DNA of 64,000 nucleotides from Haliotis cracherodii. Taxonomy: Eukaryota. A model generated the notes under the pieces. It saw only the letters and a program-made list of their open reading frames with translations, was not told the origin of the DNA and did no database searches. How positions within the stretch are numbered: position 1 is the stretch's first letter; every line of letters begins with the position of its first letter. The stretch lies in assembly GCF_022045235.1 (NCBI RefSeq), contig NW_027266341.1:54870001-54934000 (forward strand), written 5' to 3'. Positions 13,121 through 45,442 of the stretch are shown in pieces. The position numbers and the translations under genes were made by a program.

Positions 13121-15526
13121 TGTCTCCCCGTCGCCGTCGTCGCTCTGTGCGTCGTTGCTGTCTCCAGCATGTCCTACAACAACAACTTTGGCTCTGTCGG
13201 ACAGGTCGGCCATGTTGCCTCGGGTCTCAACGACTACGGCAAGGGGCAATATGGAGGCGCCGAGGGTCTTCGTCGTTACGGAAGCAAAAACAGCGCTGCC
13301 AATGCCAACAACAAAGCCGCCAACAACTACGCCGCCCACGGTAACAACTACCACAAGGCTGCTGATCAGGCCAGCGCTAAGGGGGACACCGCCTCCAACT
13401 ACTACGGCCACAAGAACGCTGCTCACGCTGACAAAGCCTCCGGTGCTGCCGCTCAGGCCAACAAAGCCAATTATCACGATGCTGCCGCCGCAAACTACGC
13501 CAGGAAGGACGACGCCTCCAAAGCTTCTGCCAACAACGACTACGCCAACAAAAACTACTACCGAAAGGGGAACGTCTACAACACCGGAGTCCACTACGGC
13601 TTCGACAAGAAGTACAACAAGAACGCCGATGAGGACGGTGACTACGAAATTCTTGATGACAGCAGTGCCCACAACCTCGACGAATACCGTGATAAGAACA
13701 AGGCTTACAGCACCGCCAACAGTGACCACGCCGCCAAAAAATATGCTGCTGATCGCTCCCGTGCTCTGAAAGACAGCAAGTACAGTAAAGACGCTTACAA
13801 GGCCAAATACGGTAACGGTAAATACGGCTCTGCTGCTAGTCAAGCTGCCAAGAACGGTGCTGCCAACCACGGTTATGACAGTAAACTGAACGAGGCAGCC
13901 GGAAGCAACAAGTACTATACCGACGCCCACGATGCTGCCATCAACAAACATGACGACTTCACCGGCAAGAACGCCTACTACGATAGAAAGAACGCCGCTA
14001 ATGCCGCTGCACAGGCTGCCCACAACGTTGCCGGATATGGAGGACTCGCTCATGGTGTCGCTGGTGTCGCTGGTTCTCTGGGTGTATCTGGAGTAGGATA
14101 CGGCAAGGGCTACGGTAAGCAGTACGGTCAAGGATACAACAATGGCTACCTCGGACATGACGCACACAACAACAAATACTACGATGCTGGCGCCCACGGT
14201 AAACACGCAAACTACTATGACGGTGCCTCCAATGCCGCTCTCGCCAAAACCGGAGGATACGGATCCAAACTGGGTGAATCCAGCCGAAACAAGGACGACG
14301 CTGCCTATAAGAGAACCGGCTACAACAACGCACAAGCCAACGACTACTACAAGTCTGGAGCTGCTGTTGCCAACAACAACGCCTACAGAGTCAACAAGGA
14401 TGGTGCCGCTGCCAACAACCACGGTTTCAGTCACGCCGGTGCCGACGCTGCCAGTCTCTATGACAACAAAGCCGCAGCTCACGACAATGCCAACTCTGCT
14501 TACGCCAAGGACAACTTCAGACGTAAGTACAACGAGGGTGCCAAGAAACACCATCTGGTCAAGAAGTTCCACCACCATTCTAAAGCCGACGGCAATAACT
14601 ACGAGCGTCTCAACTACGACAAGAAGGACTACAAAGACAACTTCGGCCAGAACGCCGATGCCGCTCATGCCAACGCAAAGAAATACACTCAAAAACTGTA
14701 CAAGAACGCCGCCAATGCTGCCGCCTCTAACAATGATAAGTATGCTGCCAACCACGCCAACAAAGCCTCCAACTACTACGATGCTGCTAATGCTGCCAAC
14801 GGCAACGCCGCTAAGAAATCCAACTACTACAACAAAAACTCCGCTGCCTCTGCTGGTGCTGCCAACGCTGCTGCCAAGTCTTATTATGACAACCACAACA
14901 ACGCTGCTGCTTCTAATGCCAAGAGTCTCAACGACTACTCACACAACCAGTACGGTAACAACGGCCACGCCTTCAACGCCGCCCACGGTGGTGCTGCTCA
15001 CCATGCCGGTGCCGCCCACCACGACGCTCCCAGCTACGGTTACGGCGTCGGACAAGGAATTGGAGGAGCTGGAGTTGTCGGCCTTGGTCACGGTGTTGGA
15101 AGCTTCGGTAACGGCAATGGCGTCGGCGTCGGTAGAGGAGTTGTTGGCCTTGGTCACGGTGTTGGTGGATACGGTAATGGGATCGGCGTCGGTAGAGGAG
15201 TTGTCGGCCTTGGTCACGGTGTTGGTGGATACGGTAATGGAGTCGGACACGGAATAGGAGGAGCTGGACATGGAGTTGTCGGCCTTGGTCACGGTGTTGG
15301 TGGATACGGTAATGGGATCGGCGTCGGTAGAGGAGTTGCCGGCCTTGGAAACAGTGTTGGTGGATACGGCAATGGAGTCGGACACGGAATTGGAGCAGCT
15401 GGACATGGAGTTGTCGGCCTTGGACATGGCGTTGGTGGATTCGGTAACGGAGGTGTCGGCCTTGGGAGAGGCTTTGGTGTTGGTCAAGGTTACGGAGGTT
15501 ACAACAAGTACCCATACTACGGGTAA
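13121..15526 (+). CDS. Paralog 1 exon 2: secreted Ala/Asn/Gly/Tyr/His-rich structural-type protein (803 aa spliced)
   Basis: Acceptor tatttttcag|TGT in frame with ORF 13022-15526; MK+CLPVAVVALCVVAVSS is a signal peptide; strong C-ending codon bias; four paralogs in the window. Confidence 0.93.
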   Translation, partial: CLPVAVVALCVVAVSSMSYNNNFGSVGQVGHVASGLNDYGKGQYGGAEGLRRYGSKNSAANANNKAANNYAAHGNNYHKAADQASAKGDTASNYYGHKNAAHADKASGAAAQANKANYHDAAAANYARKDDASKASANNDYANKNYYRKGNVYNTGVHYGFDKKYNKNADEDGDYEILDDSSAHNLDEYRDKNKAYSTANSDHAAKKYAADRSRALKDSKYSKDAYKAKYGNGKYGSAASQAAKNGAANHGYDSKLNEAAGSNKYYTDAHDAAINKHDDFTGKNAYYDRKNAANAAAQAAHNVAGYGGLAHGVAGVAGSLGVSGVGYGKGYGKQYGQGYNNGYLGHDAHNNKYYDAGAHGKHANYYDGASNAALAKTGGYGSKLGESSRNKDDAAYKRTGYNNAQANDYYKSGAAVANNNAYRVNKDGAAANNHGFSHAGADAASLYDNKAAAHDNANSAYAKDNFRRKYNEGAKKHHLVKKFHHHSKADGNNYERLNYDKKDYKDNFGQNADAAHANAKKYTQKLYKNAANAAASNNDKYAANHANKASNYYDAANAANGNAAKKSNYYNKNSAASAGAANAAAKSYYDNHNNAAASNAKSLNDYSHNQYGNNGHAFNAAHGGAAHHAGAAHHDAPSYGYGVGQGIGGAGVVGLGHGVGSFGNGNGVGVGRGVVGLGHGVGGYGNGIGVGRGVVGLGHGVGGYGNGVGHGIGGAGHGVVGLGHGVGGYGNGIGVGRGVAGLGNSVGGYGNGVGHGIGAAGHGVVGLGHGVGGFGNGGVGLGRGFGVGQGYGGYNKYPYYG

Positions 15527-15971
15527 ACGGTCACATGTGGTTGACTATATTGAACACCATCCTCACCTCACAAATCATGTGGCCAGTGTGCTTGATATGA
15601 ATGAAGAAGTTTGAATGCTTTTTTACCTCAAGTTTTATGTGTGTGTACCGTGTGTTTAATTGTTTTTTGTAACCAGAAAGGTACTACCACCAGATCTGAT
15701 CAGAAAAAAAGAACCAATTAGATTTTCAAAACAAAATTACATTATATTGATATGAATAAGGGTCATTCGGAACCTGTTAAGTTTTTTTCTATATTGATTG
15801 CCGAAATAATTGTTCAAACAAGGCGGTATTTAAACACATTTCAGAAGACGTAAGCCATTTCCATGTATACATGTACAATGCCTTTCGAATAGGTTGTTTT
15901 GTTACTTTGTACTTTGTACCTCGTTTTTCTGTTGTATTGTGATTTATGTCTTACTTTTACCCAATCGTAAG

Positions 15972-15977
15972 AATAAA
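15972..15977 (+). terminator. Probable polyadenylation signal of paralog 1
   Basis: AATAAA in ccaatcgtaagAATAAAt, a context conserved behind paralog 2 (28389). Confidence 0.65.
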
Positions 15978-16103
15978 TGTTGTCTGATAAATATGCTCTT
16001 CGTGTATTATATACAAATCATGAGAAACGGAGATACAATGCCGTGACTGAATGGAGTCTTACACCGCGGTCAGCACATGTCAGGGTGCTCTCAATCAGTT
16101 CCT

Positions 16104-16455
16104 GACCACCTTCGTGGTCTAGTGGTAGAGCGTCCACCCGGAGAGCGGAAAGTCCGGGGTTCGATACCCGGCCTCGTCATTCCAAAAGACGTTAAAAGAT
16201 GGTACTTGTTGCTACCCTGTCTGGCGCTCGCCATTATGGGGCTTAAACATGGACTGGCCTGGTCGGCTCGGAGTCAGTATACTGTGTCAGAGTGGGGTAT
16301 TCAAGTTAAACTGCGGCATGTCATCTCAGTAGGCTGGCACTAAAAATCGGTATTAGTCCGGATAGTACAAGCCGACACACACACATGCATGCACGTCGCA
16401 ATATAAGTACAACAATCTTGGACGCGATGTTAAACCCCATTTCACCGCACCTCAC
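16104..16455 (+). mobile_element. tRNA-derived SINE (family C)
   Basis: A box gtggtctagtgg, B box ggttcgatacc; TSD ctcaatcagt(t/c)cct at 16090-16103 and 16456-16469; relatives at 63360-63547, ~30560-30790(-), ~50255-50320(-). Confidence 0.85.
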
Positions 16456-17111: not shown

Positions 17112-17306
17112 ACTCTGCTAAAGACCATTAATATGTGACAATTATTCACTTTGATTTGAACACCCGGTGTCTAATCGACTAGGTGCAAGGATCCTATGCC
17201 ATCAATCGCACGTGACACGTGTTCCCTGAGCCAGTCGTGCATACACTTTATTCCTTGGACCAATTCTGGTATGTTTGTCAATCATCGAAATATCACTAGT
17301 CATCAG

Positions 17307-17462
17307 AGTGAGTGAGTGAGTGAGTATGGTTTGACGCCCTTTTATCAATATTCAAGCAATATCACTGCGGGGAACAGCAGAAATGGGCTTCACACATTGT
17401 ACCCATGTCGGGAATCGAACCCGGGGCTTTGGCGTGACGACCGAACGCTTTAACCGCAAGGC
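17307..17462 (-). mobile_element. tRNA-Asp-like SINE (family A)
   Basis: Reverse match to 28752-28915; (GAGT)n tail. Confidence 0.82.
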
Positions 17463-19299
17463 TCCAGGCCCACTAGGTCATAAGACCTATTGTGAGCTAA
17501 CATGGTCCTAGTCTAGGAATAATACCTGTTCCTTTCATTCACTTTTTGCCAAATTATTCAAAACGCTAACAGGTCACGTAAATGTGTGTAATATAATAAT
17601 CTAAACGTGTTTAGAATTTAAATTTTAAACCTGTTTCAATAAAGTGCATATGAGTGGACATTAAGTCAAATATTGATCAGAAGTATGCCACACAGTAAAC
17701 TGCGTTTTTAACGAACATGCTTAAAACATCTTAACGGACATAACGAACCTTTTTTGGGTCTCGTCCATTTGCTGAATATATGCATATAACGAACTACGGT
17801 TATAACGAACTAAATTTAGAGGTCCCTTTGTGTTCGTTATGACCGTAGTTTATTGAAATTAGATGTGCAAATCAGATTCACAGGCACTTGTATAACGCAT
17901 GCACCACCAGCACAGGAAATTGGTACATTAACATAAAAATGTACAAATACACTAAGCTAACTTAATGGTCTCTAGGAAAAATTGACATTTGTAGCACAGG
18001 TGGTAGGGTGACGAACTACAAACCAAGAGGTTACAAGTTATTATCCGGCTGAGTTTTTAAAATTGACGTGTTTATAAATATGTTTTTGCTGTATGACTAA
18101 ACGTATTTCTGTTTTACAAGAAACGGAAGCTGACAATGAAAGTATATCTGAGTACTATATATGATAGACCCATAACTTGTTTTCAGTTACCCTTATACAT
18201 ATATCTCCATAAAACGCTAAAACACATACAAAGAGCAAGTCTTTTTTCAAATTAGCTACAATGAATTTCAAGAAGGGAATAGGGGTCTTTCCCACTTTTA
18301 GACCCTAAACATGTTCATATCCTTGAAAATGTTTGGACCTAAAAAAGGCTTGTTCAGGTTTGTTTTTTACAGAATGGTTTAAAAAAATAGAAATTAAGAC
18401 AGAAAAAAAGTTGATACAACATTGCCAAGCGTACATTTAGTGAAGTAAATAAAAAGATCCAGGGTATATGAGATATTAACGCCTGCCAACTTTCTTTTAA
18501 TTACATTTCTTTTTTAAATCGACAGAGCGATGCAGCATGTGTTAGATCAAAAATGACTCTGTTTCTTATCCACATTATTCAGGATACGAGGCCTATTAAA
18601 CAATCCGGTATAATTAACTGAAGGGATGGACATGCTTCTTATTGTACAGATTAAGTCCATGGCAAATGTACAAAAAAGTTTCTCAGCATCATAGATAGCA
18701 TACAAATATTTCAGCGCGATCAGTTATAATTTTGTCCTAATTAGTTTTCTGCCTACTGAGATATAAGGAGGGAAAATGAGACTAGTAACTTGTACTTTGG
18801 AAATTGACTCATGATGAGAATATTTTATGCCCACTAACTATTTTTGTGTAAATATATTGCCGTTATGGTTACACTATATCAAGCGATCCAAAATTTATTC
18901 TGCATCGTCCTGTTCAGTACCTGATCGGTCTGTTCCTGTTTGATACCAAATTTCATAAAAGCTTATAATAAACATACATTCAGGCCGGCGGGAGATAGTA
19001 TTATATATTTCAAAAACAAAAAAATTAATCTAATCTTTGTGTCAGTCTATATGTAGTAGTTCATTATCAATGAGTATAGATATGTATTATACGTTGTACT
19101 ATAGTCTTCAGTGTAGGCATTGTCCTCAGGGGATTTAGTTTTGGGATAAATGGTGCAAAGTCTGTCGTATAATTAAATCATTTATACAAGAATGGTAACC
19201 ATGTTATCATAGTTTACAAAAAGATTATACCATCTTGATAAAAAAAAGAAACATTTAAGATTTAATAGAAACATTTAAGTAGAAGCAGTTGATGTACAG

Positions 19300-24920: not shown

Positions 24921-24926
24921 ATGAAG
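24921..24926 (+). CDS. Paralog 2 coding exon 1 (Met-Lys)
   Basis: caacATGAAG|gtaaga. Confidence 0.88.
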
Positions 24927-25684: not shown

Positions 25685-27850
25685 TGTCTCCCCGTCGCCG
25701 TCGTCGCTTTGTGCGTCGTTGTCGTCTCCAGCATGACCTACAACGACAACTTTGGCTCTGTCGGACAGGTCGGATACGTTGCCTCGGGTCTCAACGACTA
25801 CGGCAAAGGACAATATGAAGGTGCCGATGGTCTTCGTCGTTACGGAAGCAAAAACAGCGCCGCCAATGCCAACAACAAAGCCGCCAACAACTACGCCGCC
25901 CACGGTAACAACTACCACAAGGCTGCTGATCAGGCCAGCGCAAAGGGGGACACCGCCTCCAACTACTACGGCCACAAGAACGCTGCTCACGCTGACAAAG
26001 CCTCCGGTGCTGCCGCTCAGGCCAACAAAGCCAACTATCACGATGCTGCCGCCACAAAGTACGCCAGGAAGGACGACGCCTCCAAAGCTGCTGCCAATAA
26101 CGACTACGCCAACAACAACTACTACCGAAAGGGGAACGTCTACAACACCGGAGTCCACTACGGCTTCGACAAGAAGTACAACAAGAACGCCGATGAGGGC
26201 GGTGACTACGAAATTCTTGATGACAGCAGTGCCCACAACCTCGACGAATACCGTGATAAGAACAAGGCTTACAGCACCGCCAACAGTGACCACGCCGCCA
26301 ACAAATATGCTGCTGATCGCTCCCATGCTCTGAAAGACAGCAAGTACGGTAAAGATGCTAACAAGGCACAATACGGTAACGGTAAATACGGCTCTGCTGC
26401 TAGTCACGCTGCCAAGAACGGTGCTGCCAACAATGGGTATGCCAGTAAACTGAACGAAGCTGCTGGAAGTAACAAATACGACGACAACGCTCACAATGCC
26501 GCTATCAACAAATATGACGAGTTCACCGGCAAGAACGCCCACTACGACAGAAGGAACGCCGCTAATGCCGCTGCACAGGCTGCCCACAACGTTGCCGGAT
26601 ATGGAGGTCTCGCTCATGGTGTCGCTGGTTTCGCTGGCTCTCAAGGTCTTCTTGGCAAGGGAGTAGGATACGGCAAGGGCTACGGTAAGCAGTACGGTCA
26701 GGGATACAACAATGGTTACCTCGGACATGACGCACACAACAATAAATACTACGATGCTGGCGCCCACGGTCAACACGCAAACTACTATGACGGTGCTTCC
26801 AATGCCGCTCTCGCCAAAACCGGAGGATACGGATCCAAACTGGCTGACTCTGGCAAAAGCAAGGCCGGTGCTGCCTATAAGAGAAACGGCTACAACAACG
26901 CTCAAGCCAACGACTACTACAAGTCTGGAGCTGCTGCTGCCAACAACAACGCCTACAGAGTCAACAAGGATGGTGCCGCTGCCAACAACCACGGCTTCAG
27001 TCACGCCGGTGCCGACGCTGCCAGTCTCTATGACAACAAAGCCGCAGCTCACGACAATGCCAACTCTGCTTACGCCAAGGACAACTTCAGACGTAAGTAC
27101 AACGATGCTGCCAAGAAACACCATCTGGTCAAGAAGTTCCACCACCATTCCAACGCCGGCGGCAACAACTACGAGCGTCTCAACTACGACAAGAAGGACT
27201 ACCAGGACAACTTCGGCCAGAACGCCAATGCCGCTAATGCCAACGCAAAGAAATACACTCAAAAACTGTACAAGAACGCCGCCAATGCAGCCGCCTCTAA
27301 CAATGATAAGTCTGCTGCCAACCACGCCAACAAAGCCTCCAACTACTACGATGCTGCCAATGCTGCCAACGGCAACGGTGCTAAGAAATCAAACTACTAC
27401 AACAAAAACGCCGCTGCCTCTACTGGTGCTGCCAACGCTGCTGCCAAATCGAATTATGGTAACTACAACAACGCTGCTGCTGCCAACTTCAAGAGTCTCA
27501 ACAACTACGCCCACAGCCAGTACGGTAACAACGGCCACGCCTACAACGCCGCTCACGGTGGTGCTGCTCATCATGCCGGTGCCGCCCACCACGACGCTCC
27601 CAGCTACGGTTACGGCGTCGGACACGGAATTGGAGGAGCTGGACATGGAGTTGTCGGCCTTGGTCACGGTGTTGGTGGATACGGTAATGGGATCGGCGTC
27701 GGTAAAGGAGTTGTCGGCCTTGGAAAAGGCGTTGGTAGCTTCGGTAATGCTGCAGGCGTTATAAAGGGAGTTTCTAACCTAGGAAATGGATTTGGTGTTG
27801 TGGGAGGGTTCGGCGTCAACACCGGTATGGGGCACTATCCCTACTACTAG
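25685..27850 (+). CDS. Paralog 2 exon 2: secreted Ala/Asn/Gly/Tyr/His-rich protein (723 aa spliced)
   Basis: Acceptor gtttttcag|TGT in frame with ORF 25667-27850; signal peptide; highly similar to paralog 1 with a distinct linker and C-terminus. Confidence 0.93.
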   Translation, partial: CLPVAVVALCVVVVSSMTYNDNFGSVGQVGYVASGLNDYGKGQYEGADGLRRYGSKNSAANANNKAANNYAAHGNNYHKAADQASAKGDTASNYYGHKNAAHADKASGAAAQANKANYHDAAATKYARKDDASKAAANNDYANNNYYRKGNVYNTGVHYGFDKKYNKNADEGGDYEILDDSSAHNLDEYRDKNKAYSTANSDHAANKYAADRSHALKDSKYGKDANKAQYGNGKYGSAASHAAKNGAANNGYASKLNEAAGSNKYDDNAHNAAINKYDEFTGKNAHYDRRNAANAAAQAAHNVAGYGGLAHGVAGFAGSQGLLGKGVGYGKGYGKQYGQGYNNGYLGHDAHNNKYYDAGAHGQHANYYDGASNAALAKTGGYGSKLADSGKSKAGAAYKRNGYNNAQANDYYKSGAAAANNNAYRVNKDGAAANNHGFSHAGADAASLYDNKAAAHDNANSAYAKDNFRRKYNDAAKKHHLVKKFHHHSNAGGNNYERLNYDKKDYQDNFGQNANAANANAKKYTQKLYKNAANAAASNNDKSAANHANKASNYYDAANAANGNGAKKSNYYNKNAAASTGAANAAAKSNYGNYNNAAAANFKSLNNYAHSQYGNNGHAYNAAHGGAAHHAGAAHHDAPSYGYGVGHGIGGAGHGVVGLGHGVGGYGNGIGVGKGVVGLGKGVGSFGNAAGVIKGVSNLGNGFGVVGGFGVNTGMGHYPYY

Positions 27851-28068: not shown

Positions 28069-28219
28069 CGGGGTGGTTGGGTAGCCTAGTGGTTAAAGCA
28101 TTCGCTAGTCACGCCGAAGACCCAGGTTCGATTCCCCACATGGGTACAATGTGTAAAGCCCATTTCTGTTGTCCCAAGCCGTTATATTGCTGGTAAACGG
28201 CGTAAAACCATACTCACTA
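28069..28219 (+). mobile_element. SINE family A in the probable 3' UTR of paralog 2
   Basis: gggtagcctagtggttaaagc..ggttcgattccc..actcact; lies between AATAAA at 28024 and the conserved AATAAA at 28389. Confidence 0.82.
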
Positions 28220-28751: not shown

Positions 28752-28915
28752 GGGGCGGTCCGGTAGCCGAGTGCTAAAAGTGTTCGCTCGTCACGCCGAC
28801 GACCCTGGTTCAATTCCCGACATGGGTACAATGTGTGAAGCCCATTTCTGGTGTCCCCCGCCGTGATATTGCTAGAATATTGCTAGCGGCGTAAAACCAA
28901 ACTTACTCACTCACT
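28752..28915 (+). mobile_element. Full-length tRNA-Asp-like SINE (family A)
   Basis: tRNA-like head (ctcgtcacgcc..ggttcaattccc), (ACTC)n tail, TSD ttaatcag at 28745-28752 and 28916-28923. Confidence 0.88.
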
Positions 28916-29524
28916 TTAATCAGTTTCTGTGTGCTAGTCCTTCAATATGACTGCGGAATATCTCGATATAAATTAGTCAAATCCAGTATAGATAAGATGA
29001 ATATGCAACTGTATATCAAGCTGAATCCCATATACATGTATGAAATAATGAGAATTATTTTATATAAATAAGAAAAAAATATTAATATCATAGATTACAT
29101 GTATATGTTAGTCTCCAGGTAAGCAGTCAGCATACAATGATATGTGTGTTGTCTAATGGCACAAATAGATACAAGGTTACCATTGAGTACGTCATGATCG
29201 TTGGCATATCGACTACGGGCAAGATGTCAAGCTCATCTTGTGGTACCAAGAAGTAATTAACGTCGACATCAGAGATTTTTAAAACTTTGTTAGACGTCAT
29301 TTCTTTCTAATAATCCGGGCGAAAGTAGAAGTTGGACCCAATAAAAGTCGATACTGCCCTACTTAGGTATATGCCATATGCGGGGAAAAAGACAAAATCT
29401 TTTGTCGACTCACTTATTAGAAATATGTTAAGGCCACGATAAATTAAATCTTGCATCCTCACCGGCTCTCAACTAAAGACACCGCTCACATCATGTCCAC
29501 CAATGTTTTCTTCTAGAATTATTA

Positions 29525-31500: not shown

Positions 31501-32290
31501 CACATATGAAAACAGTGTGCTCAGTAAAGTTCACATATCTCACTGCAATTGTATACCACTTCACGTAAGGGTTGGGACTCAAATGTGTGGAACCAAGAAA
31601 AGACTAGATATATCTGATCTGAGGTACAGCATTCAAGGCCTTCCAACAGCTTTCAAAAAGTGGTATGGTAGAGACATGTGGGCGACATTTCCAAATTTGA
31701 CGCATCGGTGACCAAATTGATGTGCGATACTATTCCCTATTCCATATATCAAAATGTTATTTTAAAGGTACACGCTTAACTTGCCCTTGCATGTGTTTGT
31801 GACTGGTGACACTATTTGATAATGTTCCATAAAACACATGCTCATGATATAGTCGAAATTGTACAGTGGAGATTTTTTATGCTAATGGAAATGTTGATTT
31901 TAGTAACTTTAATGAAACTTTATACGAACATTTCGAGGCCAGTGCATGTTGTTTGGGACATGTGCCCACGGCGGGGCAGGATACGCTGACTTTTACGCGA
32001 AAGATTTGGTATCGTCACTATTGATAATAATTAATAAAAACATGCTCAAGATATATAGTCGGATTTACGATCATGCAAATGTTTTTTTCGCTTTAATATA
32101 TGTCCATGTTTGAATCGTAACTGTGTACTCCAGCACTGTGCAAGGTAAACAGGCATATAACGATCGGTAACATGTCTCAATGACACTTCGCAATCTGAGA
32201 ACGTGAAGTGCATTTATATTTCGAGGAATGTGTTCTTTTCGTGAAAATGCGATTCTAAGCTATCCGTTAACTCCTCTTAGTCTGAGGAAA

Positions 32291-32447
32291 TGAGTGTGTG
32301 AGTATGGTATATACGCCTTTTTTTATTAATAATCCAACTTTAGGACACAAGAAATGGGCTTCAGGCAGTGTACCCATGTGGGGAATCGAACCTGGACCTT
32401 AGGCGTGATGAGTGAATAGTTTAACCACTAGGCTACCCACCGCCCCC
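32291..32447 (-). mobile_element. SINE family A
   Basis: Reverse match; equivalent position to the 41827-42141 copy in the duplicated block. Confidence 0.78.
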
Positions 32448-32925
32448 TAAGGCTCGGTTCCCTATCCTATTGCAAATAGCTCATGAATCATCCTTCAATT
32501 GGCCATCTGTAGTCCCTTTGTATGCTCAAAATATAAACGATTCTTTGACAAATTTACGGACGGGTGAAACCATAATGAAAGACGGTTGTTATATGAAAAG
32601 TAAGAAGGTTACTTTTTCTCTATTCCAATGGACTTTGAAGAACCCGGGAAGAAAATCTGTTTTCAAAATCTGAATTGGGCAGGCGGATCCGTGAATCAAT
32701 TAAGCACAAAGAACGATTTTTCACATTCGGGTGAACATGTTGACACGATCATACAATCAGCTACGGACGTATTTGAGTCTTCAACAGATTGTTCCAATTG
32801 GTAATTATGGATGTATTGGTTTCCAGTATTCAACCAAACTACTGTTCACAAAACAATTAAATTTATATATTAACTTGGTTTCTTTGAAAATAGAACAATA
32901 CATTCATCCTTCTGTTAAGAAAGTA

Positions 32926-33442: not shown

Positions 33443-35605
33443 TTACCCGTAGTAAGAGTACTGGTTATAACCTCCAAAGCCTTGACCAACACCAAAGCCT
33501 CTTCCAAGGCCGACAACTCCTCTACCGACGCCGACGCCATTACCGTTACCGAAGCCGCCAACACCGTGACCAAGACCGACAACTCCTTTACCGACGCCAT
33601 TACCGTATCCACCAACACCGTGACCAAGACCGACAACTCCATGTCCAACTCCTCCAATTCCGTGTCCGACGCCGTAACCGTAGCTAGGAGCGCCGTGGTG
33701 GGCGGCACCGGCATGGTGAGCAGCACCACCGTGAGCGGCGTTGTAGGCGTGGCCGGTGTTACCGTACTGTTTGTTGGAGTAGTCGTTGAGACTCTTGGCA
33801 TTTGTAGCAGCAGCGTTGTTGTGGTTGTCATAATAAGATTTGGCAGCAGCGTTGGCAGCACCAGCAGAGGCAGCGGCGTTTTTGTTGTAGTAGTTGGATT
33901 TCTTAGCACCGTTGCCGTTGGCAGCATTAGCAGCATCGTAGTAGTTGGAGGCTTTGTTGGCGTGGTTGGCAGCATATTTGTCATTGTCATGGGCAGCAGC
34001 ATTGGCGGCGTTCTGGTAGAGATTCTGGGTTGTTTTCTTGGTGTTGGCATGAGCGGCATTGGCGTTCTGTCCGAAGTTGTCCTGGTAGTCCTTCTTGTCG
34101 TAGTTGAGACGCTCGTAGTTGTTGCCGCCGGCGTTGGAATGATGGTGGAACTTCTTGACCAGATGGTGTTTCTTGGCAGCATCGTTGTACTTACGTCTGA
34201 AGTTGTCCTTGGCGAAAGCAGAGTTGGCATTGTCGTGAGCTGCGGCTTTGTTGTCATAGAGACTGGCAGCGTCAGCACCGGCGTGACTGAAGCCGTGGTT
34301 GTTGGCAGCGGCACCGTCCTTGTTGACTCTGTAGGCGTTGTTGTTGGCAGCAGCAGCTCCAGACTTGTAGTAGTCGTTGGCATGAGCGTTGTTGTAGCCG
34401 TTTCTCTTATAGGCAGCGTCGGCCTTGTTTCTGCTAGACTCACCCAGTTTGGATCCGTATCCTCCGGTTTTGGCGAGAGCGGCATTGGCAGCACCGTCAT
34501 AGTAGTTTGCATGTTGACCTTGGGCGCCAGCATCGTAGTATTTGTTGTTGTGTGCGTCATGTCCGAGGTAACCATTGTTGTATCCCTGGCCATACTGCTT
34601 ACCGTAGCCCTTACCGTATCCTACTCCAGATACACCCAGAGAACCAGCGACACCACCGACACCGTGGCCACCATGAGCGAGACCTCCATATCCGGCAACG
34701 TTGTGGGCAGCCTGTGCAGCGGCATTAGCAGCGTTCCTGCTGTCGTAGTAGGCGTTCCTGCCGGCGAACTCATCATGTTTGTTGATGGCAGCATCGTGAG
34801 CGTTGGCGGAGTATTTGTTGCTTCCGGCTGCTTCGTTCAGTTTGCTGTCGTAGCCGTGGTTGGCAGCACCGTTCTTGGCAGCTTGACTAACAGCAGAGCC
34901 GTATTTACCGTTACCGTATTGAGCCTTGTAAGCGCCTTTACCGTACTTGCTGTCTTTCAGAGCATGGGAGCGATCAGCAGCATACTTGTTGGCGGCGTGG
35001 TCACTGTTGGCGGTGCTGTAAGCCTTGTTCTTATCTTCATATTCGTCGAGGTTGTGGGCGCTGCTGTCATCAAGAATTTCGTAGTCCCCGCCCTCATCGG
35101 CGTTCTTGTTGTACTTCTTGTCGAAGCCGTAGTGGACTCCGGTGTTGAAGACGTTCCCCTTTCGGTAGTAGTTGTTGTTGGCGTAGTCGTTGTTGGCAGC
35201 AGCTTTGGAGGCGGCGTCCTTTCTGGCGTAGTTTGCGGCGGCAGCATCGTGGTAGTTGGCTTTGTTGGCCTGAGCGGCTGCACCGGTAGCTTTGTCAGCG
35301 TGAGCAGCGTTCTTGTGGCCGTAGTAGTTGGAGGCGGTGTCCCCCTTAGCGCTGGCCTGATCAGCAGCTTTGTGGTAGTTGTTACCGTGGGCGGCGTAGT
35401 TGTTGGCGGCTTTGTTGTTGGCATTGGCGGCGCTGTTTTTGCTGCCGTAACGACGAAGACCCTCGGCGCCTTCATATTGCCCTTTGCCGTAGTCGTTGAG
35501 ACCCGAGGCAACGTGGCCGACCTGTCCGACAGAGCCAAAGTTGTTGTTGAAGGACATGCTGGAGACGACAACGACGCACAAAGCGACGACGGCGACGGGG
35601 AGACA
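33443..35605 (-). CDS. Paralog 3 exon 2: secreted Ala/Asn/Gly/Tyr/His-rich protein (722 aa spliced)
   Basis: Acceptor gtgttttttcag|TGT in frame with ORF 33443-35749; the ORF's poly-Leu start is an intronic (CTA)n run. Confidence 0.93.
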   Translation of the reverse strand, partial: CLPVAVVALCVVVVSSMSFNNNFGSVGQVGHVASGLNDYGKGQYEGAEGLRRYGSKNSAANANNKAANNYAAHGNNYHKAADQASAKGDTASNYYGHKNAAHADKATGAAAQANKANYHDAAAANYARKDAASKAAANNDYANNNYYRKGNVFNTGVHYGFDKKYNKNADEGGDYEILDDSSAHNLDEYEDKNKAYSTANSDHAANKYAADRSHALKDSKYGKGAYKAQYGNGKYGSAVSQAAKNGAANHGYDSKLNEAAGSNKYSANAHDAAINKHDEFAGRNAYYDSRNAANAAAQAAHNVAGYGGLAHGGHGVGGVAGSLGVSGVGYGKGYGKQYGQGYNNGYLGHDAHNNKYYDAGAQGQHANYYDGAANAALAKTGGYGSKLGESSRNKADAAYKRNGYNNAHANDYYKSGAAAANNNAYRVNKDGAAANNHGFSHAGADAASLYDNKAAAHDNANSAFAKDNFRRKYNDAAKKHHLVKKFHHHSNAGGNNYERLNYDKKDYQDNFGQNANAAHANTKKTTQNLYQNAANAAAHDNDKYAANHANKASNYYDAANAANGNGAKKSNYYNKNAAASAGAANAAAKSYYDNHNNAAATNAKSLNDYSNKQYGNTGHAYNAAHGGAAHHAGAAHHGAPSYGYGVGHGIGGVGHGVVGLGHGVGGYGNGVGKGVVGLGHGVGGFGNGNGVGVGRGVVGLGRGFGVGQGFGGYNQYSYYG

Positions 35606-35631: not shown

Positions 35632-35639
35632 GTAGTAGC

Positions 35640-35715
<76 letters not shown>
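35632..35715. repeat. (TAG/CTA)n microsatellite next to the paralog 3 splice acceptor
   Basis: Roughly 27 triplets; only ~6 at the equivalent site in paralog 4 (45467-45486). Confidence 0.95.
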
Positions 35716-36306: not shown

Positions 36307-36312
36307 CTGCAT
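36307..36312 (-). CDS. Paralog 3 coding exon 1 (Met-Gln)
   Basis: Minus strand cagtATGCAG|gtaaga; TATAAG at 36386-36391. Confidence 0.85.
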
Positions 36313-37914: not shown

Positions 37915-39938
37915 TATTAAAGAATTAAAGGAAAAATGATGGGTTAAATCAGTCCCACTATGAAATGAGGGTGGCCAGACGAGAACGGATAGGGGATAAT
38001 AGACCACGGGGAGGAAACTCTAGATTATACAAATCCTATAAAAATGCAAAAAGCGAATTTAGACGTTTACACCAAAAATCAAAACGTAAACAGCGCAAAG
38101 AAATAAGTACAGAAGTAGAAAAGACATGTGAAACCGATATAAATACATTCTATAAACATGTTCGTAAGTTGAGACCGGTTATTGATAAATTAGTTTACAA
38201 TGGACGTAGTGCTCTTTCTTCAGCTGATATATGTAAACTGTGGGGTGACTATTATTCAGACTTGGCAAAACCTCACCAGTCTGATGATTTTGACGAAAGC
38301 TATAAACTCACCATTGCATCAAAACTTCATTATATCATGGAACAAAATCGTCATAATCATGATCCACTAGATGATATCCTGTATACAGAAATCCCAGTCC
38401 CAGAAATCAGATCACATATACACAACCTTAAAAGAAACAAATCTCCAGGACCTGATGGTATCACAAATGAACACCTGATATTTGGAGGAGAGATGCGTGT
38501 AGTAACCCTCAAACACCTATTCAATCAAATACTTGCAACCAGTATTATCCATGTGCCTTCAGAAAAGGTATGATAATACTTATTTATAAAGACAAAAACG
38601 ACAAACATGATCCACGTAACTATAGGGGCATAACTCTTACATCGTGTCTATCTAAACTCCTAGAGAAAATCATTATAAGTAGAATAGAAAAATATACACC
38701 CAGTAATCTCCAATCATTCCCCGATGCTTTACAATTTGGTTTCTGAAAGGAACATGGAGCAATCATGTCTGTATTCGCCGTTTTAGAATGTGTTAATTTT
38801 TACCTAGAAAGAGAATCACAAGTGTTTGCTGCATTTTTAGATCATGAAGAAGCTTTCGATCGTATTTGGCACGACGGTCTGTTTGTTAAATTACATGACT
38901 TTGGTGTGAAGGGTAAATTATGGAACTTGCTTCACCACAGCTACACAGACAGTTGTGCTTTTATATCCTACAACGGAGAAAGATCTGATGAGTTTCACAT
39001 TAAACAAGGTGTTGGGCAAGGTCGAGTTATGCCAGCATGGTTCTTTCTCGTTTTCATGAATGACCTTATATGTGAACTAAGGAAAGCAAACGATGGCCTC
39101 CATGTTTATGGCATCTACATACCCTGTGTGTTATTGGCCGATGACACAACGCTCTTGTCTACAACCCCACGGGGCTTACAGTCTTCCCTTGATTCAGTTC
39201 GTTTATATGCCAACAAATGGAGACTCACCTATAATGCCTCCAAGAGTAAATCACTTGTATTCTGCAAAACACGTCAGCGTCATAATAAAGTAACCTACAC
39301 GTTTGACGATGCAATAATTGACACCTCCGACTCCGTCAAATATGGCGGAACAAACATAAACAGTAATTCATCCTGTATAGAAAGAATCATGACATGTTGC
39401 TCGAAAGCAAGAAAATGTGTTAATTCACTACGATCACTCGGCCTCAACGATTCCGACCTCCACCCAGTTACATGTGTCAATATATGGAAAAGAATGATTT
39501 TATCTACAAGCTTTTATGGATGTGAATTGTTACCAGCCTTATACGGTTAAGAACTTGAAATGATTGAATGTACACAACGTTACTTTGCTCGTCATATACA
39601 AGGATTTGGTAAAAGACATCCAACCGATTCGTCTATTTCTAACTTGGGAATGTGGTCAATGAATGGCTACATTGATAAATGTAGACTACAATTATTAGGA
39701 AGGCTCTGCAATAACGATTGTAACTAAATAACAAAAGACCTATTTTGTGCTCACATTGCTACCAACGCGATTGTCAATATTAGTCGCCCAGTAAGCATAT
39801 GCAACATCCTTCTATATACTGCTAAAATACCATTTAGATAACTTTATAAAGGAATATACTGATAGCGGTTCATTCCCAACTAAATCGGTTTGGCGAGCTC
39901 TTGTAATCAGACGTCTATCAGAGAATGAACATTACATC

Positions 39939-40637: not shown

Positions 40638-41152
40638 CGAAACAAATGAGAAATAATATAGCGTCATACTGACTTGTATTCAAATACACACATATTAAAT
40701 ACAGACACTAAATATTGGCACTAGTACCAACACATGCCCATTATAAATACTAGTACGAGGGTAGACAGATATAAAGCCACACAAACACATATATACCCAT
40801 GCAGATATATATCTCTCTCTCTATCTCGTTAGTTATATGTTTGTGGGAATATATGTGGGTATGTATGTGTGTATATTAAAAAAACATGTTTATGTATTGC
40901 ATGTTAATATATTTCTCCTTGTTACTTTGAAATGTAATATACAGTTAACCACGTTTAATACGAACACGCTTGTAACGAACTGACGGATATGACGAACTTT
41001 TTTTGTCGCGGACACTGCTGTATCTATGCTGTGCTTATGCTTATAACGTACTGCGGTTATAACAAACTAAACTTAGTGGCTCTTATACACACATATAAAT
41101 AAAATATATGTAATATACACACATATATATATATAATCAATGTATAATCATA

Positions 41153-41327: not shown

Positions 41328-41413
41328 TACATACATAAGGGTCAGGGCCACCAAAGAGGGATAGCCTCGTTGACCATATACGTCAATAAAATACGTTTAA
41401 AACAAACCAAAAC

Positions 41414-41418
41414 ACACA

Positions 41419-41459
<41 letters not shown>

Positions 41460-41468
41460 GCACGCACG
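41414..41468. repeat. (CACG)n microsatellite
   Basis: Direct. Confidence 0.92.
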
Positions 41469-41969: not shown

Positions 41970-42141
41970 TGAGTGTGTGAGTGGTCGAGTATTGTTTTAC
42001 ACTGTTTTTAGCAATATTCCAGCGATATCAATGCGGGGGACACCAGAAATGGGCTTCACACATTGTATCCATGTGGGAAATCGAACCTGGGCCTTAGGCG
42101 TGATGTGTGAGCGCTTTAACCACTTGGCTACCCCCACCGTC
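41970..42141 (-). mobile_element. SINE family A
   Basis: Reverse match with B box aatcgaacc; a second tail fragment at 41827-41887. Confidence 0.8.
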
Positions 42142-43198
42142 CAATGTCTTGGAAAGTGCTACCTCTATTACTCAATAAGGCTCTGTTCCCTTTCCGTTAC
42201 AATGACTTGCAAATAGCTCAAGAATCTTCCTTCAATTATCCATCTGAAGTCCCTTTGTTGTTTTATGCTCAAAACAAAAACGATTCTTTGACAGATTTAC
42301 GGGCGGGTGAAGCATTATGAAAGACGGTTGTTATATGAAAAGTAAGTTGATTATTTGTGCTCTATTCCAATGGACTTTGAAATAGCCGGGAAGAAAAAGT
42401 GTTCTCAAAATTTATCTTTGGGTAGGCGGATCCATGAATCAATTTAGTGCAAAAAAACCGCTTTTACACATTCGGTTGAACATTTTGAACATTTTGACAC
42501 GTCATGTCACAATTTGTAATTGTAGATGTATTGGGTTCCAGAATTCAACCAAACTGCTGTACACAAAACGATTAAATTATATATAATAACTTGGTTTCTT
42601 TGAAAATATAACAATACGTTCATCTTTCTGTGAAGAAAGTATTTATTGGAGATAGTAAAAAAGGACACCTTTACACAAAGAAATGCACAAGGACCAGAAG
42701 TTGTCATGAAGTAAACACAGTTGGTTATGTGGTTAAGATCATGCGATCTAGTAGATTATCATTACACATAAATGTCGCTCTAGTAAACAGATTGACAAAG
42801 AAAAATGTTGCAGCACAAAAATCAGCAATTCAAGACAACTCTTTAAGACATTATTCATCATGACGTTTCTATGGTCAAATACCAGCTGGGAGACAATCAA
42901 TTTTACATGTCATATTATAGTTTTTAAAAGAAATAATTTCCATCACTACGAGAAAACAACTTTTTACTTTGTTGGACCAATATGCAATCGCTACAAATAC
43001 ATTTTTGTGAAATTAAATCTGGTTATCGACTATAAAAGATAAAACGTGTTTAAACAATTGCCCAAAGAGCACATATTTCAGTTATTTTTACTTCATGACA
43101 TCCTCAGGTTCAAACACATAATATCTTGTCACACAACGCTGATCATTTACACTTTCAATATCAAAGTCTCTCTCACACAGTAACACATTTATAACCGT

Positions 43199-45442
43199 TT
43201 ACCCGTAGTAAGAGTACTGGTTATAACCTCCAAAGCCTTGACCAACACCAAAGCCTCTACCAAGGCCGACAACTCCGTTACCGACGCCGACGCCATTGCC
43301 GTTACCGAAGCCACCAACACCGTGACCAAGACCGACAACTCCATGTCCAGCTCCTCCAATTCCGTGTCCGACTCCATTACCGTATCCACCAACACCGTTT
43401 CCAAGGCCGACAACTCCTTTACCGACGCCGATCCCATTACCGTATCCACCAACACCGTGACCAAGACCGACAACTCCACGTCCAACTCCTCCAATTCCGT
43501 GTCCGACGCCGTAACCGTAGCTGGGAGCGTCGTGGTGGGCGGCACCGGCATGGTGAGCAGCACCACCGAGAGCGGCGTTGTAGGCGTGGCCGTTGTTACC
43601 GTACTGGTTGTGTGAGTAGTCGTTGAGACTCTTGGCATTAGAAGCAGCAGCGTTGTTGTGGTTGTCATAATAAGACTTGGCAGCAGCGTTGGCAGCACCA
43701 GCAGAGGCAGCGGCGTTTTTGTTGTAGTAGTTGGATTTCTTAGCGGCGTTGCCGTTGGCAGCATTAGCAGCATCGTAGTAGTTGGAGGCTTTGTTGGCGT
43801 GGTTGGCAGCATATTTGTCGTTGTCATGGGCGGCAGCATTGGCGGCGTTCTGGTAGAGGTTCTGGGTTATTTTCTTAGTGTTGGCATGAGCGGCATTGGC
43901 GTTCTGTCCGAAGTTGTCCTTGTAGTCCTTCTTGTCGTAGTTGAGACGCTCGTAGTTGTTGCCGCCGGCGTTGGAATGATGGTGGAACTTCTTGACCAGA
44001 TGGTGTTTCTTGGCAGCATCGTTGTACTTACGTCTGAAGTTGTCCTTGGCGTAAGCAGAGTTGGCATTGTCGTGAGCTGCGGCTTTGTTGTCATAGAGAC
44101 TGGCGGCGTCAGCACCGGCGTGACTGAAGCCGTGGTTGTTGGCAGCGGCACCATCCTTGTTGTATCTGTAGGCGTTGTTGTTGGCAGCAGCAGCTCCAGA
44201 CTTGTAGTAGTCGTTGGCATGTGCGTTGTTGTAGCCGTTTCTCTTATAGGTAGCGTCGGCCTTGTTTCTGCTAGACTCACCCAGTTTGGATCCGTATCCT
44301 CCGGTTTTGGCGAGAGCGGCATTGGCAGCACCGTCATAGTAGTTTGCATGTTGACCTTGGGCGCCAGCATCGTAGTATTTGTTGTTGTGTGCGTCATGTC
44401 CGAGGTAGCCATTGTTGTATCCCTGGCCATACTGCTTACCGTAGCCCTTGCCGTATCCTACTCCAGATACACCCAGAGAACCAGCGACACCACCGACACC
44501 GTGGCCACCATGAGCGAGACCTCCATATCCGGCAACGTTGTGGGCAGCCTGTGCAGCGGCATTAGCGGCGTTCCTTCTGTCGTAGTAGGCGTTCCTGCCG
44601 GTGAAGTCGTCATGTTTGTTGATGGCAGCATCGTGAGCGTTGGCGGAGTATTTGTTGCTTCCGGCTGCTTCGTTCAGTTTACTGTCGTAGCCGTGGTTGG
44701 CAGCACCGTTCTTGGCAGCTTGACTAGCAGCAGAGCCGTATTTCCCGTTACCGTATTGAGCCTTGTAAGCGCCTTTACCGTACTTGCTGTCTTTCAGAGC
44801 ATGGGAGCGATCAGCAGCATACTTGTTGGCGGCGTGGTCACTGTTGGCGGTGCTGTAAGCCTTGTTCTTATCTTCATATTCGTCGAGGTTGTGGGCACTG
44901 CTGTCATCAAGAATTTCGTAGTCCCCGTCCTCATCGGCGTTCTTGTTGTACTTCTTATCGAAGCCGTAGTGGACTCCGGTGTTGAAGACGTTCCCCTTTC
45001 GGTAGTAGTTGTTGTTGGCGTAGTCGTTGTTGGCAGCAGATTTGGAGGCGGCGTCCTTTCTGGCGTAGTTTGCGGCGGCAGCATCGTGGTAGTTGGCTTT
45101 ATTGGCCTGAGCGGCAGCACCAGAAGCTTTGTCAGCGTGAGCAGCGTTCTTGTGGCCGTAGGAGTTGGAGGCAGTGTCCCCCTTAGCGCTGGCCTGATCA
45201 GCAGCTTTGTGGTAGTTGTTACCGTGGGCGGCGTAGTTGTTGGCGGCTTTGTTGTAGGCATTGACAGCGCTGTTTTTGCTGCCGTAACGACGAAGACCCT
45301 CTGCGCCTCCATATTGCCCTTTGCCGTAGTCGTTGAGACCCGAGGCAACGTGGCCGACCTGTCCGACAGAGCCAAAGTTGTTGTTGTAGGTCATGCTGGA
45401 GACGACAACGACGCACAAAGCGACGACGGCGACGGGGAGACA
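43199..45442 (-). CDS. Paralog 4 exon 2: secreted Ala/Asn/Gly/Tyr/His-rich protein (749 aa spliced)
   Basis: Acceptor gtgttttttcag|TGT in frame with ORF 43199-45454; signal peptide; tandem duplicate of paralog 3. Confidence 0.93.
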   Translation of the reverse strand, partial: CLPVAVVALCVVVVSSMTYNNNFGSVGQVGHVASGLNDYGKGQYGGAEGLRRYGSKNSAVNAYNKAANNYAAHGNNYHKAADQASAKGDTASNSYGHKNAAHADKASGAAAQANKANYHDAAAANYARKDAASKSAANNDYANNNYYRKGNVFNTGVHYGFDKKYNKNADEDGDYEILDDSSAHNLDEYEDKNKAYSTANSDHAANKYAADRSHALKDSKYGKGAYKAQYGNGKYGSAASQAAKNGAANHGYDSKLNEAAGSNKYSANAHDAAINKHDDFTGRNAYYDRRNAANAAAQAAHNVAGYGGLAHGGHGVGGVAGSLGVSGVGYGKGYGKQYGQGYNNGYLGHDAHNNKYYDAGAQGQHANYYDGAANAALAKTGGYGSKLGESSRNKADATYKRNGYNNAHANDYYKSGAAAANNNAYRYNKDGAAANNHGFSHAGADAASLYDNKAAAHDNANSAYAKDNFRRKYNDAAKKHHLVKKFHHHSNAGGNNYERLNYDKKDYKDNFGQNANAAHANTKKITQNLYQNAANAAAHDNDKYAANHANKASNYYDAANAANGNAAKKSNYYNKNAAASAGAANAAAKSYYDNHNNAAASNAKSLNDYSHNQYGNNGHAYNAALGGAAHHAGAAHHDAPSYGYGVGHGIGGVGRGVVGLGHGVGGYGNGIGVGKGVVGLGNGVGGYGNGVGHGIGGAGHGVVGLGHGVGGFGNGNGVGVGNGVVGLGRGFGVGQGFGGYNQYSYYG

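What the first reader, a model, noticed from the sequence alone, without database searches (positions are those of the whole stretch)
13121..45442. Coding variants group inner pair (2+3) versus outer pair (1+4), against flank ancestry: conversion across an inverted array
Seen: promoters and 3' flanks group 1+2 and 3+4 (3+4 also share introns), yet many coding sites group 2+3 versus 1+4. Examples: QYEG/QYGG, DEGG/DEDG, DEF/DDF, DYQD/DYKD, NGNG/NGNA, and silent sites ggt/ggc in NGY, gct/gca in NNA, aaa/aag in AKS. Paralog 5 has the 1+4 state at EDG, DYKD and NGNA, so the 2+3 states look derived. Other sites (VYN/VFN, YRD/YED, KKYTQKLY) follow the flanks. Paralog 1's linker and C-terminus resemble 3/4 more than 2. 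Inference: patchy concerted evolution, with pairing favoured by fold-back of the >> << arrangement.
Basis: partly seen in the sequence, partly recalled or inferred. Interest (0 to 1): 0.7.

Follow-up and report, generated by a model that had tools for sequence, protein, structure and literature searches.

The report
Gene conversion across inverted abalone paralogs
Four neighbouring copies of a gene for a likely secreted snail structural protein, two facing the other two, carry patchwork coding sequences that no single family tree explains; they likely copy patches onto each other by gene conversion, a known process, and may favour inner-with-inner and outer-with-outer partners.

Summary
The mosaic is real. 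Of 51 informative coding sites, 39 group 1+2/3+4 like the flanks, 11 group 1+4/2+3 and 1 groups 1+3/2+4. One tree is rejected (0 of 1000 simulations reach 11). Short-read contigs from two studies carry all four haplotypes at the one segment I could phase, so it is not consensus mixing there. Cross-orientation coding dS is 0.14-0.17, while promoters differ by 34-38% and introns and UTRs do not align. The neighbouring inverted pair p5/p6 shows the same pattern more clearly. Best reading: ectopic gene conversion confined to the long exon, with one clear 1-4 tract (about 230 bp) and several short, likely 2-3 patches. 'Many' and 'the 2+3 states are derived' are overstated: p5 matches 1+4 at 4 sites, 2+3 at 4, neither at 3. 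A fold-back preference is moderately supported: simulations favour it 3- to 12-fold over uniform or proximity models, on a statistic chosen afterwards. There are no palindrome arms outside the exons. The scan noted conversion between inverted paralogs before, in a bacterium. Known process, new instance.

The parts
10571..10576 (+). p1 exon 1 (ATG + one codon, then GT donor; splicing inferred), with TATA box at 10524
13121..15526 (+). p1 exon 2: signal-peptide-like start, Asn/Ala/Tyr/Lys/His-rich body, Gly/Val repeat tail
24921..24926 (+). p2 exon 1; promoter 84-86% identical to p1's
25685..27850 (+). p2 exon 2; divergent linker and C-terminus
33443..35605 (-). p3 exon 2, tail-to-tail with p2 (5.6 kb between stops)
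36307..36312 (-). p3 exon 1
43199..45442 (-). p4 exon 2
46121..46126 (-). p4 exon 1; intron and promoter 93% identical to p3's
14741..14972 (+). 1-4 conversion tract in p1 (partner p4 43813-43582). From here to the end of the core, p1/p4 differ at 4 of 294 sites against 14 (p1/p3), 25 (p1/p2) and 12 (p3/p4); holds 4 of the 11 sites
43582..43813 (-). partner of the 1-4 tract in p4
14666..14740 (+). divergence island in p1 (KKYTQKLY region; p2 27236-27310, p3 34051-33977, p4 43888-43814): 15 fixed 1+2 vs 3+4 differences in 75 bp against 26 in the other 1808; p1 and p2 differ at only 2 sites here
13254..13297 (+). two 1+4/2+3 sites (13254, 13297) flanking a 1+2/3+4 site (13282); segment phased in independent contigs
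13635..14633 (+). five isolated 1+4/2+3 sites in p1 coordinates: 13635, 13957, 14146, 14332, 14633
26870..27235 (+). stretch where p2 has no private sites and is closest to p3 (6 differences in 366 bp against 13 to p1 and 10 to p4); not significant as a tract by itself
55359..57485 (+). p5 exon 2 (exon 1 at 54271); outgroup, dS about 1.0 to p1-p4
55105..59073 (+). left arm of the inverted pair p5/p6; the right arm runs from 63858 beyond the window end, with p6 exon 2 at G000:C78:54937476-54935350

Best explanation
The four genes are two older lineages (1+2 and 3+4) facing each other, each likely duplicated in tandem, whose long second exons have likely been overwritten in patches by ectopic gene conversion between opposite-facing copies. 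Shown: the flanks give the 1+2/3+4 ancestry; the exons are much closer across orientations than the flanks; one tree fails; there is a 1-4 tract. Inferred: a break in one copy is repaired from another copy on the same chromosome folded back on itself. Homology ends at the splice site and just after the stop, so tracts stay inside the exon. A private change copied from 2 to 3 (or back), or from 4 to 1 (or back), gives a 1+4/2+3 site. Most isolated sites look like short 2-3 patches (nearest inverted neighbours). The 3' cluster is one 1-4 tract, more likely 4 into 1, because p2-private sites are dense there. I put the further step, that nested partners (2-3 and 1-4) are favoured beyond what proximity and chance give, at about 0.45. 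A 75-bp island has escaped cross-orientation homogenisation, possibly through divergent selection (untested).
For: Site patterns 39/11/1. One-tree bootstrap: 0 of 1000 reach 11; without the 3' tract 7 sites remain against a mean of 1.5, 0 of 2000. Permutation test for shared fragments: 1-4 tract p<0.001 after correction for 6 pairs; 1-2 tract significant with mismatches allowed (p<=0.004; 0.07 without); MaxChi breakpoints at alignment positions 1579 and 1655. AU test: the tract prefers 1+4/2+3 (p=0.023 for the flank tree), the rest prefers the flank tree. dS 0.144-0.167 across orientations against promoter mismatch 0.34-0.38 and unalignable introns/UTRs; within pairs dS matches the flanks (1-2: 0.133 vs 0.144; 3-4: 0.067 vs 0.069 5' and 0.124 3'). 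p5/p6: intron 16-28% diverged, exon 2 0-2.5% in 10 of 11 windows of 200 bp (one at 6%), 3' flank 0-6.5%. Contigs of runs X1 and X5 (two studies) match the p1, p2, p3 and p4 haplotypes across 13254/13282. The p1 C-terminus is joined to the p1 3' flank in X1, X7 and X10. Asp in EDG and Ala in NGNA are shared with p5, p6 and Lottia P0001 (by-eye comparison), so Gly in 2+3 is likely derived there.
Against: No 2-3 tract is significant by itself (p 0.22-0.27). The runs test on the order of informative sites is not significant (p=0.10; longest run p=0.058), although the neighbour-incompatibility test is at windows 2-5 (p 0.007-0.019). Some 1+4/2+3 sites lie 3-4 bp from a flank-type site (13635/13639, 14332/14335), which needs tract ends or patchy repair exactly there. 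Direction and non-reciprocity are not shown. Only 2 of 11 sites were phased in independent data, from counts and depths rather than printed letters. The full p4 haplotype was seen in 1 of 3 same-label runs, and that run may be the assembly's own sample; X1 and X6 lack the p4 markers. No GC bias among polarised shared variants (2-copy derived: 17 W>S, 20 S>W).
Confidence: 0.88

Rival explanations
1. Conversion is real but partner choice follows only proximity and chance: 2-3 exchange most because they are adjacent, and the 1-4 tract is one chance event. This rivals the fold-back step, not the conversion.
For: The 1-4 signal rests mainly on one tract. Proximity models give a scattered 1+4/2+3 excess in 42 of 791 (1/distance) and 97 of 743 (2-3 five-fold) matched simulations, against 207 of 441 for strong nesting; equal numbers were simulated per model. 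There are no non-coding arms and the register is off by 2.7 kb.
Against: Adding a dominant 1-4 tract to the criteria leaves 5 (uniform), 8 (1/distance) and 6 (adjacent) against 23 (3:1 nested) and 58 (19:1 nested) of 33,425 simulations each. No 1-3 or 2-4 tract was found although both pairs are closer than 1-4.
Confidence: 0.45
2. Reciprocal exchange: two crossovers between inverted copies 1 and 3, or 2 and 4 (inversion, then re-inversion at a shifted point), swap a segment and turn 1+2/3+4 sites into 1+4/2+3 sites with no 1-4 or 2-3 pairing at all.
For: Follows from the pattern logic. Codon 14807-14809 has derived letters on both sides relative to p5 (GCC in 1+4, GGT in 2+3, GCT in p5), as expected for a swapped old difference. 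Branch counts in the 3' tract fit a 1-3 swap about as well as a 4-to-1 conversion. Flip-flop inversion at homogenised inverted repeats is described in yeast (PMC9731477, abstract only).
Against: The seven isolated sites would each need a double crossover less than about 75 bp wide. Each gene keeps the 3' flank that matches its promoter lineage, so no single uncompensated inversion is seen.
Confidence: 0.1
3. Relict ancestry: an inverted duplication of a tandem pair first made 1=4 and 2=3, and later 1-2 and 3-4 homogenisation overwrote most of it.
For: It would explain scattered 1+4/2+3 sites and the lack of 1+3/2+4 sites, and inverted duplication has occurred here (p5/p6).
Against: No homology between the 1-2 and 4-3 intergenic regions beyond dispersed repeats; p3/p4 share about 1.1 kb of 3' flank and about 1 kb of intron and promoter. 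The 1-4 tract is too young (4 of 294 differences).
Confidence: 0.04
4. Recurrent mutation (homoplasy) on one tree in a codon-biased, low-complexity gene.
For: Strong codon bias; rate variation is poorly estimated from four sequences.
Against: Expected about 2.3 per class and symmetric; observed 11 and 1, with 5 nonsynonymous. It does not explain the tract or the exon-flank contrast.
Confidence: 0.02
5. Assembly or polishing artefact that mixed reads of paralogs.
For: No raw long reads were available; 9 of 11 sites were not phased independently.
Against: All four two-site haplotypes, with copy-specific marker letters for p1, p2 and p4, occur in short-read contigs of two studies within a span of 29 bp. 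The p1 tail joined to the p1 flank occurs in three organisms.
Confidence: 0.03

Closest known systems
Gene conversion between closely linked inverted paralogs (Capitella teleta Dlx pair; Drosophila Hsp70, amylase and trypsin as listed in PMC3199776; C. elegans hsp16 and hsp70 pairs in PMC3966223; passages read)
   Same: Linked copies in opposite orientation, mosaic homogenisation within the gene, short tracts. p5/p6 and p2/p3 fit this directly.
   Different: Here four copies offer a choice of four inverted partners, so partner preference can be read from site patterns; the passages read concern pairs, and PMC3966223 says the orientation effect was undetermined.
Arm-to-arm conversion in mammalian Y-chromosome palindromes (cited in the Discussion of 10.64898/2026.06.30.735624; details recalled)
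   Same: Fold-back pairing of inverted copies would match inner with inner and outer with outer.
   Different: p1-p4 have no shared non-coding arms, are 93-97% identical, are out of register by 2.7 kb and have no sign of lying in a non-recombining region (not tested).
Architecture-constrained concerted evolution in the Drosophila Su(Ste) array (10.64898/2026.06.30.735624; abstract and Discussion read)
   Same: Non-adjacent units more alike than neighbours; the authors weigh block duplication against preferential conversion in three dimensions, the same rivals as here.
   Different: Su(Ste) is a large Y-linked tandem array studied in three strains; this is a four-gene protein-coding cluster in one haplotype, with exchange limited to one exon.
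Saccharomyces flip/flop region with homogenised inverted repeats (PMC9731477, abstract only)
   Same: Inverted gene copies kept alike by recurrent homogenisation.
   Different: No inversion polymorphism was shown here; not testable with these tools.
Uncharacterised gastropod proteins: Lottia LOTGIDRAFT_238000/238001, Gigantopelta and Haliotis 'filaggrin-2-like'/'sericin 1-like' (source labels)
   Same: Signal-peptide-like start and two conserved blocks (around GFDKK and GGNN.ERL.Y) in a low-complexity chain; E down to 1e-46.
   Different: At most 38% identical to p4; labels are automatic. No Pfam family for p4, p5, P0001 or P0002. Function and tissue are not established.

Membership tests
Interlocus (ectopic) gene conversion / concerted evolution | Coding segments closer than the flanks predict | tested here: met
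   dS 0.14-0.17 vs promoter mismatch 0.34-0.38 across orientations; p5/p6 exon 0-2.5% vs intron 16-28%
Interlocus (ectopic) gene conversion / concerted evolution | Different segments support different trees beyond homoplasy | tested here: met
Interlocus (ectopic) gene conversion / concerted evolution | Mosaic exists in real molecules, not only in the assembly | tested here: met
   Met for one segment (2 of 11 sites) and for the p1 tail-flank junction
Interlocus (ectopic) gene conversion / concerted evolution | Transfer is non-reciprocal, with donor and recipient identifiable | tested here: inconclusive
   Polarity by p5 is split 4/4/3 and dS to p5 is about 1.0; a reciprocal swap is not excluded
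Interlocus (ectopic) gene conversion / concerted evolution | Variants shared between paralogs segregate in populations | tested here: inconclusive
   p4 markers seen in X5 but not X1 or X6; G at 13254 not listed in X6; contigs drop variants
Palindrome arm-to-arm conversion | Long inverted arms that include non-coding DNA | tested here: not met
   Not met for p1-p4; met for p5/p6, with arms of about 4 kb at 92-96%
Palindrome arm-to-arm conversion | Partners symmetric about one centre | tested here: not met
   p1 17.5 kb and p4 14.8 kb from the p2/p3 centre
Palindrome arm-to-arm conversion | Exchange restricted to mirror-image partners | tested here: inconclusive
   Favoured 3- to 12-fold in simulations on a post hoc statistic; 8 runs vs 1, p=0.039
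Flip-flop inversion at inverted repeats | Both orientations of the inner segment segregate | not testable with these tools
   Needs long reads or several assemblies
DUF4779 (PF16009) low-complexity arthropod proteins | Match to the Pfam profile | tested here: not met
   No Pfam hit at E<=0.1 for p4, p5, P0001, P0002; Atlas feature score for P0001 only 0.77, a lead

The most novel reading that the evidence does not exclude
A >> << gene cluster with no palindromic non-coding arms still pairs as a nested hairpin, so inner converts inner and outer converts outer, across 30 kb and in preference to closer inverted partners. Partner choice in ectopic repair would then be set by register in a folded chromosome loop, not by distance, and a 75-bp island kept apart by selection would mark what distinguishes the two protein lineages.
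Probability: 0.4. Interest if true: 0.6.

Novelty: new member of a known kind. Interest (0 to 1): 0.36.

Why it matters
How orientation and distance set the choice of partner in ectopic conversion is hard to separate with gene pairs (PMC3966223, section 4.3 passages). A four-copy >> << cluster with a fifth and sixth copy as a plain inverted pair gives a natural test, because 1-4 is the most distant inverted pair and should be the rarest under proximity. Population data for the species exist as sequencing runs, so the test is feasible. In practice, gene trees and short-read variant calls for these paralogs will mislead. The island that resists homogenisation points to residues that may matter in an uncharacterised gastropod protein family.

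Tried and rejected
Protein searches found no close relative of p1-p6: 3 hits at 27-32% among 7988 candidates, none among 646 for residues 125-300, 11 representatives at 23-38%. Sister-species orthologs were therefore not available for polarity. Pfam: no family for 4 of 5 proteins, one sub-threshold hit. Atlas: leads only, on the Lottia homologue. No RNA holder listed, so expression is open. The first read-laying over all of p1 showed 40 of 239 variant rows and 32 of 431 pieces and could not be phased. I first read the bases after the stop as a further 1+4/2+3 site and dropped it: p2 ends differently and p3 has a private one-base loss. The linker (alignment columns 930-1010) was left out because it aligns poorly; this removes 1 flank-type site and 14 p2-private sites. 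GC-biased conversion: no signal. An early simulation without the scatter condition gave a weak contrast (15 of 106 uniform vs 77 of 111 nested), and a wider tract prior gave 2 vs 16; results depend on priors. One simulation run timed out with no output and was rerun. Paper searches: none for LOTGIDRAFT_238000 (one search gave only unrelated listings), none on this family or cluster in the listings, none on nested partner choice in a four-gene inverted cluster in the 25 of 67 and 20 of 27 listings. These searches cover an open-access library only, and supplements were not read; shell, radula or mucus proteome tables may list these proteins. No tRNA genes.

Full report
Anatomy. The window holds five paralogs of a two-exon gene, arranged p1> p2> <p3 <p4 p5>, and a sixth, <p6, lies just past the window end. 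Exon 1 is a start codon plus one codon; exon 2 (2.1-2.4 kb) encodes a signal-peptide-like start, an Asn/Ala/Tyr/Lys/His-rich body and a Gly/Val repeat tail (splicing and secretion are inferred). Two distant paralogs lie 1.3 Mb away. One of them matches stored protein P0005 letter for letter after the first two residues, which a source labels Haliotis cracherodii 'sericin 1-like', so the genome is an abalone. Other relatives carry Gigantopelta, Lottia, Patella, Nucella and Batillaria labels, at 23-36% identity. No Pfam family fits. dN/dS is 0.21-0.33 in all pairs, so the genes look constrained.

The observation. In the non-repetitive core there are 51 informative sites: 39 group 1+2/3+4, 11 group 1+4/2+3 and 1 groups 1+3/2+4. 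Flanks group 1+2 and 3+4: promoter and exon 1 mismatch is 0.157 for 1-2, 0.025 for 3-4 and 0.34-0.38 across; 3+4 share intron and 1.1 kb of 3' flank; 1+2 share a short 3' UTR block. The claim that the 2+3 states are derived holds for 4 nonsynonymous sites where p5 sides with 1+4; for EDG and NGNA the Lottia protein agrees by eye. At 4 synonymous sites p5 sides with 2+3 and at 3 with neither, and synonymous sites are near saturation to p5 (dS about 1.0). At 13297 the sister-organism run X7 shows no C in 48.6 depth, which points the other way from p5. Polarity is therefore mixed.

More than chance. With the poorly aligned linker removed (38/11/1), simulation on the best single tree gives 2.3-2.5 sites of the 1+4/2+3 class and 0 of 1000 reach 11. 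A permutation test for shared fragments finds a 1-4 tract at alignment 1655-1874 (p<0.001 after correction) and a 1-2 tract at 1588-1653 (significant only with mismatches allowed); 1-3, 2-3, 2-4 and 3-4 have none. The 3' part prefers the 1+4/2+3 tree (AU p=0.023 for the flank tree; KH and SH p=0.068), the rest prefers the flank tree, and the 7 sites left outside the tract still exceed the one-tree null (0 of 2000). The runs test on site order was not significant (p=0.10).

Not an assembly artefact where tested. Short-read contigs were laid on 13195-13345 (32 of 55 pieces shown). From the number of differences and the depths, X1 pieces 5, 2 and 4 equal the p1, p2 and p3 haplotypes and X5 pieces 10 and 11 equal p4 and p2. 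Sites 13254 and 13282 span 29 bp, inside one 31-letter word, so all four two-site combinations exist in data from two studies. Limits: this is read from counts, covers 2 of 11 sites, and the p4 form was seen only in X5, which may be the assembly's own sample. X1 and X6 lack the p4 markers, so the mosaic may differ between animals. The 3/4-like tail of p1 is joined to the p1 3' flank in contigs of three organisms (X1, X7, X10), so that feature likely predates their split.

What the divergences say. Within pairs, dS matches flank divergence: 0.133 vs 0.144 for 1-2, and 0.067 vs 0.069 (5') and 0.124 (3') for 3-4. Across orientations dS is only 0.144-0.167 although promoters are about 65% identical and introns and UTRs do not align. 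One 75-bp island keeps 15 fixed differences between 1+2 and 3+4, against 26 in the other 1808 columns; random placement gave at most 10 in 5000 trials. I read the island as a remnant of the true depth of the split and the rest of the exon as homogenised. The inverted pair p5/p6 repeats the pattern: intron 16-28% diverged, exon 2 at 0-2.5% (one window 6%), 3' flank 0-6.5%, with the drop at the splice acceptor.

Mechanism. Most likely (0.88) ectopic gene conversion between opposite-facing copies, bounded by the exon where homology ends. The 3' cluster of 4 sites is one 1-4 event, more likely 4 into 1 since p2-private sites are dense there (16 in 294 bp). The isolated sites at 13635, 13957 and 14633 look like short 2-3 patches, and p2 is closest to p3 over 26870-27235. 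These assignments are inferences. A reciprocal swap between 1 and 3 or 2 and 4 gives the same site pattern and is not excluded for the 3' tract.

The fold-back step. The 11 sites are not independent: 8 runs against 1 gives p=0.039, and 7 against 1 gives p=0.07. I simulated mutation plus conversion under five partner models and kept runs matched to the observed divergences. In the last run (33,425 per model, p2 allowed a faster rate), uniform partner choice gave a scattered asymmetry this strong in 16 of 734 runs in this direction and 19 in the mirror direction. Requiring also a dominant 1-4 tract left 5 (uniform), 8 (1/distance), 6 (2-3 favoured), 23 (nested 3:1) and 58 (nested 19:1); one search gave the same order with a related statistic. 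That is 3- to 12-fold support, with small counts, chosen priors and statistics picked after seeing the data. Against a literal hairpin: no non-coding arms, and 1 and 4 are 2.7 kb out of register about the 2-3 centre. I put the nested preference at about 0.45.

Comparison with what is known. Conversion between linked inverted paralogs with a mosaic pattern is well described (PMC3199776 and PMC3966223, passages). Non-adjacent units being more alike through array architecture is argued for Su(Ste) (10.64898/2026.06.30.735624, abstract and Discussion). Homogenised inverted repeats drive flip-flop inversion in yeast (PMC9731477, abstract). This locus works like the first and is a member of that kind. 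It fails the membership test for palindrome arm-to-arm conversion in p1-p4, while p5/p6 come closer. I found no paper on this cluster or protein family in the listings, nor on nested partner choice; the library is partial.

Verdict. Observation partly confirmed (real, but 11 of 51 sites, and polarity overstated). Interpretation partly supported (conversion yes, fold-back preference open). New member of a known kind; interest 0.36.

Noticed in passing
window 55105-59073 and 63858 to G000:C78:54937699: p5/p6 form an inverted duplication with arms of about 4 kb and a 4.8 kb spacer. Identity jumps from 72-84% in the intron to 97-100% at the exon 2 acceptor and stays 93-100% for 1.6 kb of 3' flank: a cleaner case of conversion between facing copies than p1-p4.
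   Followed up: partly
window 14666-14740 (and 13687-13690): Divergence island with 15 fixed 1+2 vs 3+4 differences in 75 bp, and a whole-codon Arg/Glu difference at YRD/YED; candidates for divergent selection that resists conversion.
   Followed up: partly
window 15071-15450, 27605-27760, 33500-33680, 43260-43520: The Gly/Val tail is built from 54-75 bp modules whose number differs between copies (p1 longest); a 135-bp higher-order unit occurs in p1 and p4 only.
   Followed up: partly
G000:C78:56236424-56249850 (L011-L012): Two further tandem paralogs (p7, p8) of 801 and 870 aa open frames, about 33% identical to p1 over 200 aa and 72% alike to each other in DNA; the Lottia homologues also have consecutive gene numbers.
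   Followed up: partly
window 37929-39550: Open frames of 214 and 267 aa that look like a broken non-LTR retrotransposon reverse transcriptase (recalled motifs, not searched), between the p3 promoter and the p4 3' flank.
   Followed up: no
window 9071-9331: A 260-bp self-inverted element (87% arm match) with partial copies near 40872-40940 and 48066-48166; MITE-like.
   Followed up: no
window 17306-17463, 28070-28218, 28752-28919, 32287-32448, 41971-42138, 58866-58981, 63691-63856: A dispersed short repeat with tRNA-like boxes (SINE-like, by eye; ARAGORN finds no tRNA); copies sit in both orientations in the p2-p3 spacer and in p4's 3' flank.
   Followed up: no
window 35632-35715: A (GTA)28 microsatellite next to the exon 2 acceptor of p3, much shorter in p4; it extends the apparent open frame with a poly-Leu run.
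   Followed up: no
window 322-1168, 2083-2482, 3633-4019, 4684-5043, 51496-52086, 62150-62656: Minisatellites with periods of 39-43, 39, 42, 73-86, 103-120 and 44 bp.
   Followed up: no
P0009: A partial protein labelled Enterococcus faecium on a 993-base contig resembles the unnamed animal-type relatives P0002, P0003 and P0006; possibly contamination of that record.
   Followed up: no
p1-p6 proteins: No protein above 38% identity to p4 was returned from the library of cluster representatives, although p8 is there; these six genes may be missing from annotations.
   Followed up: partly
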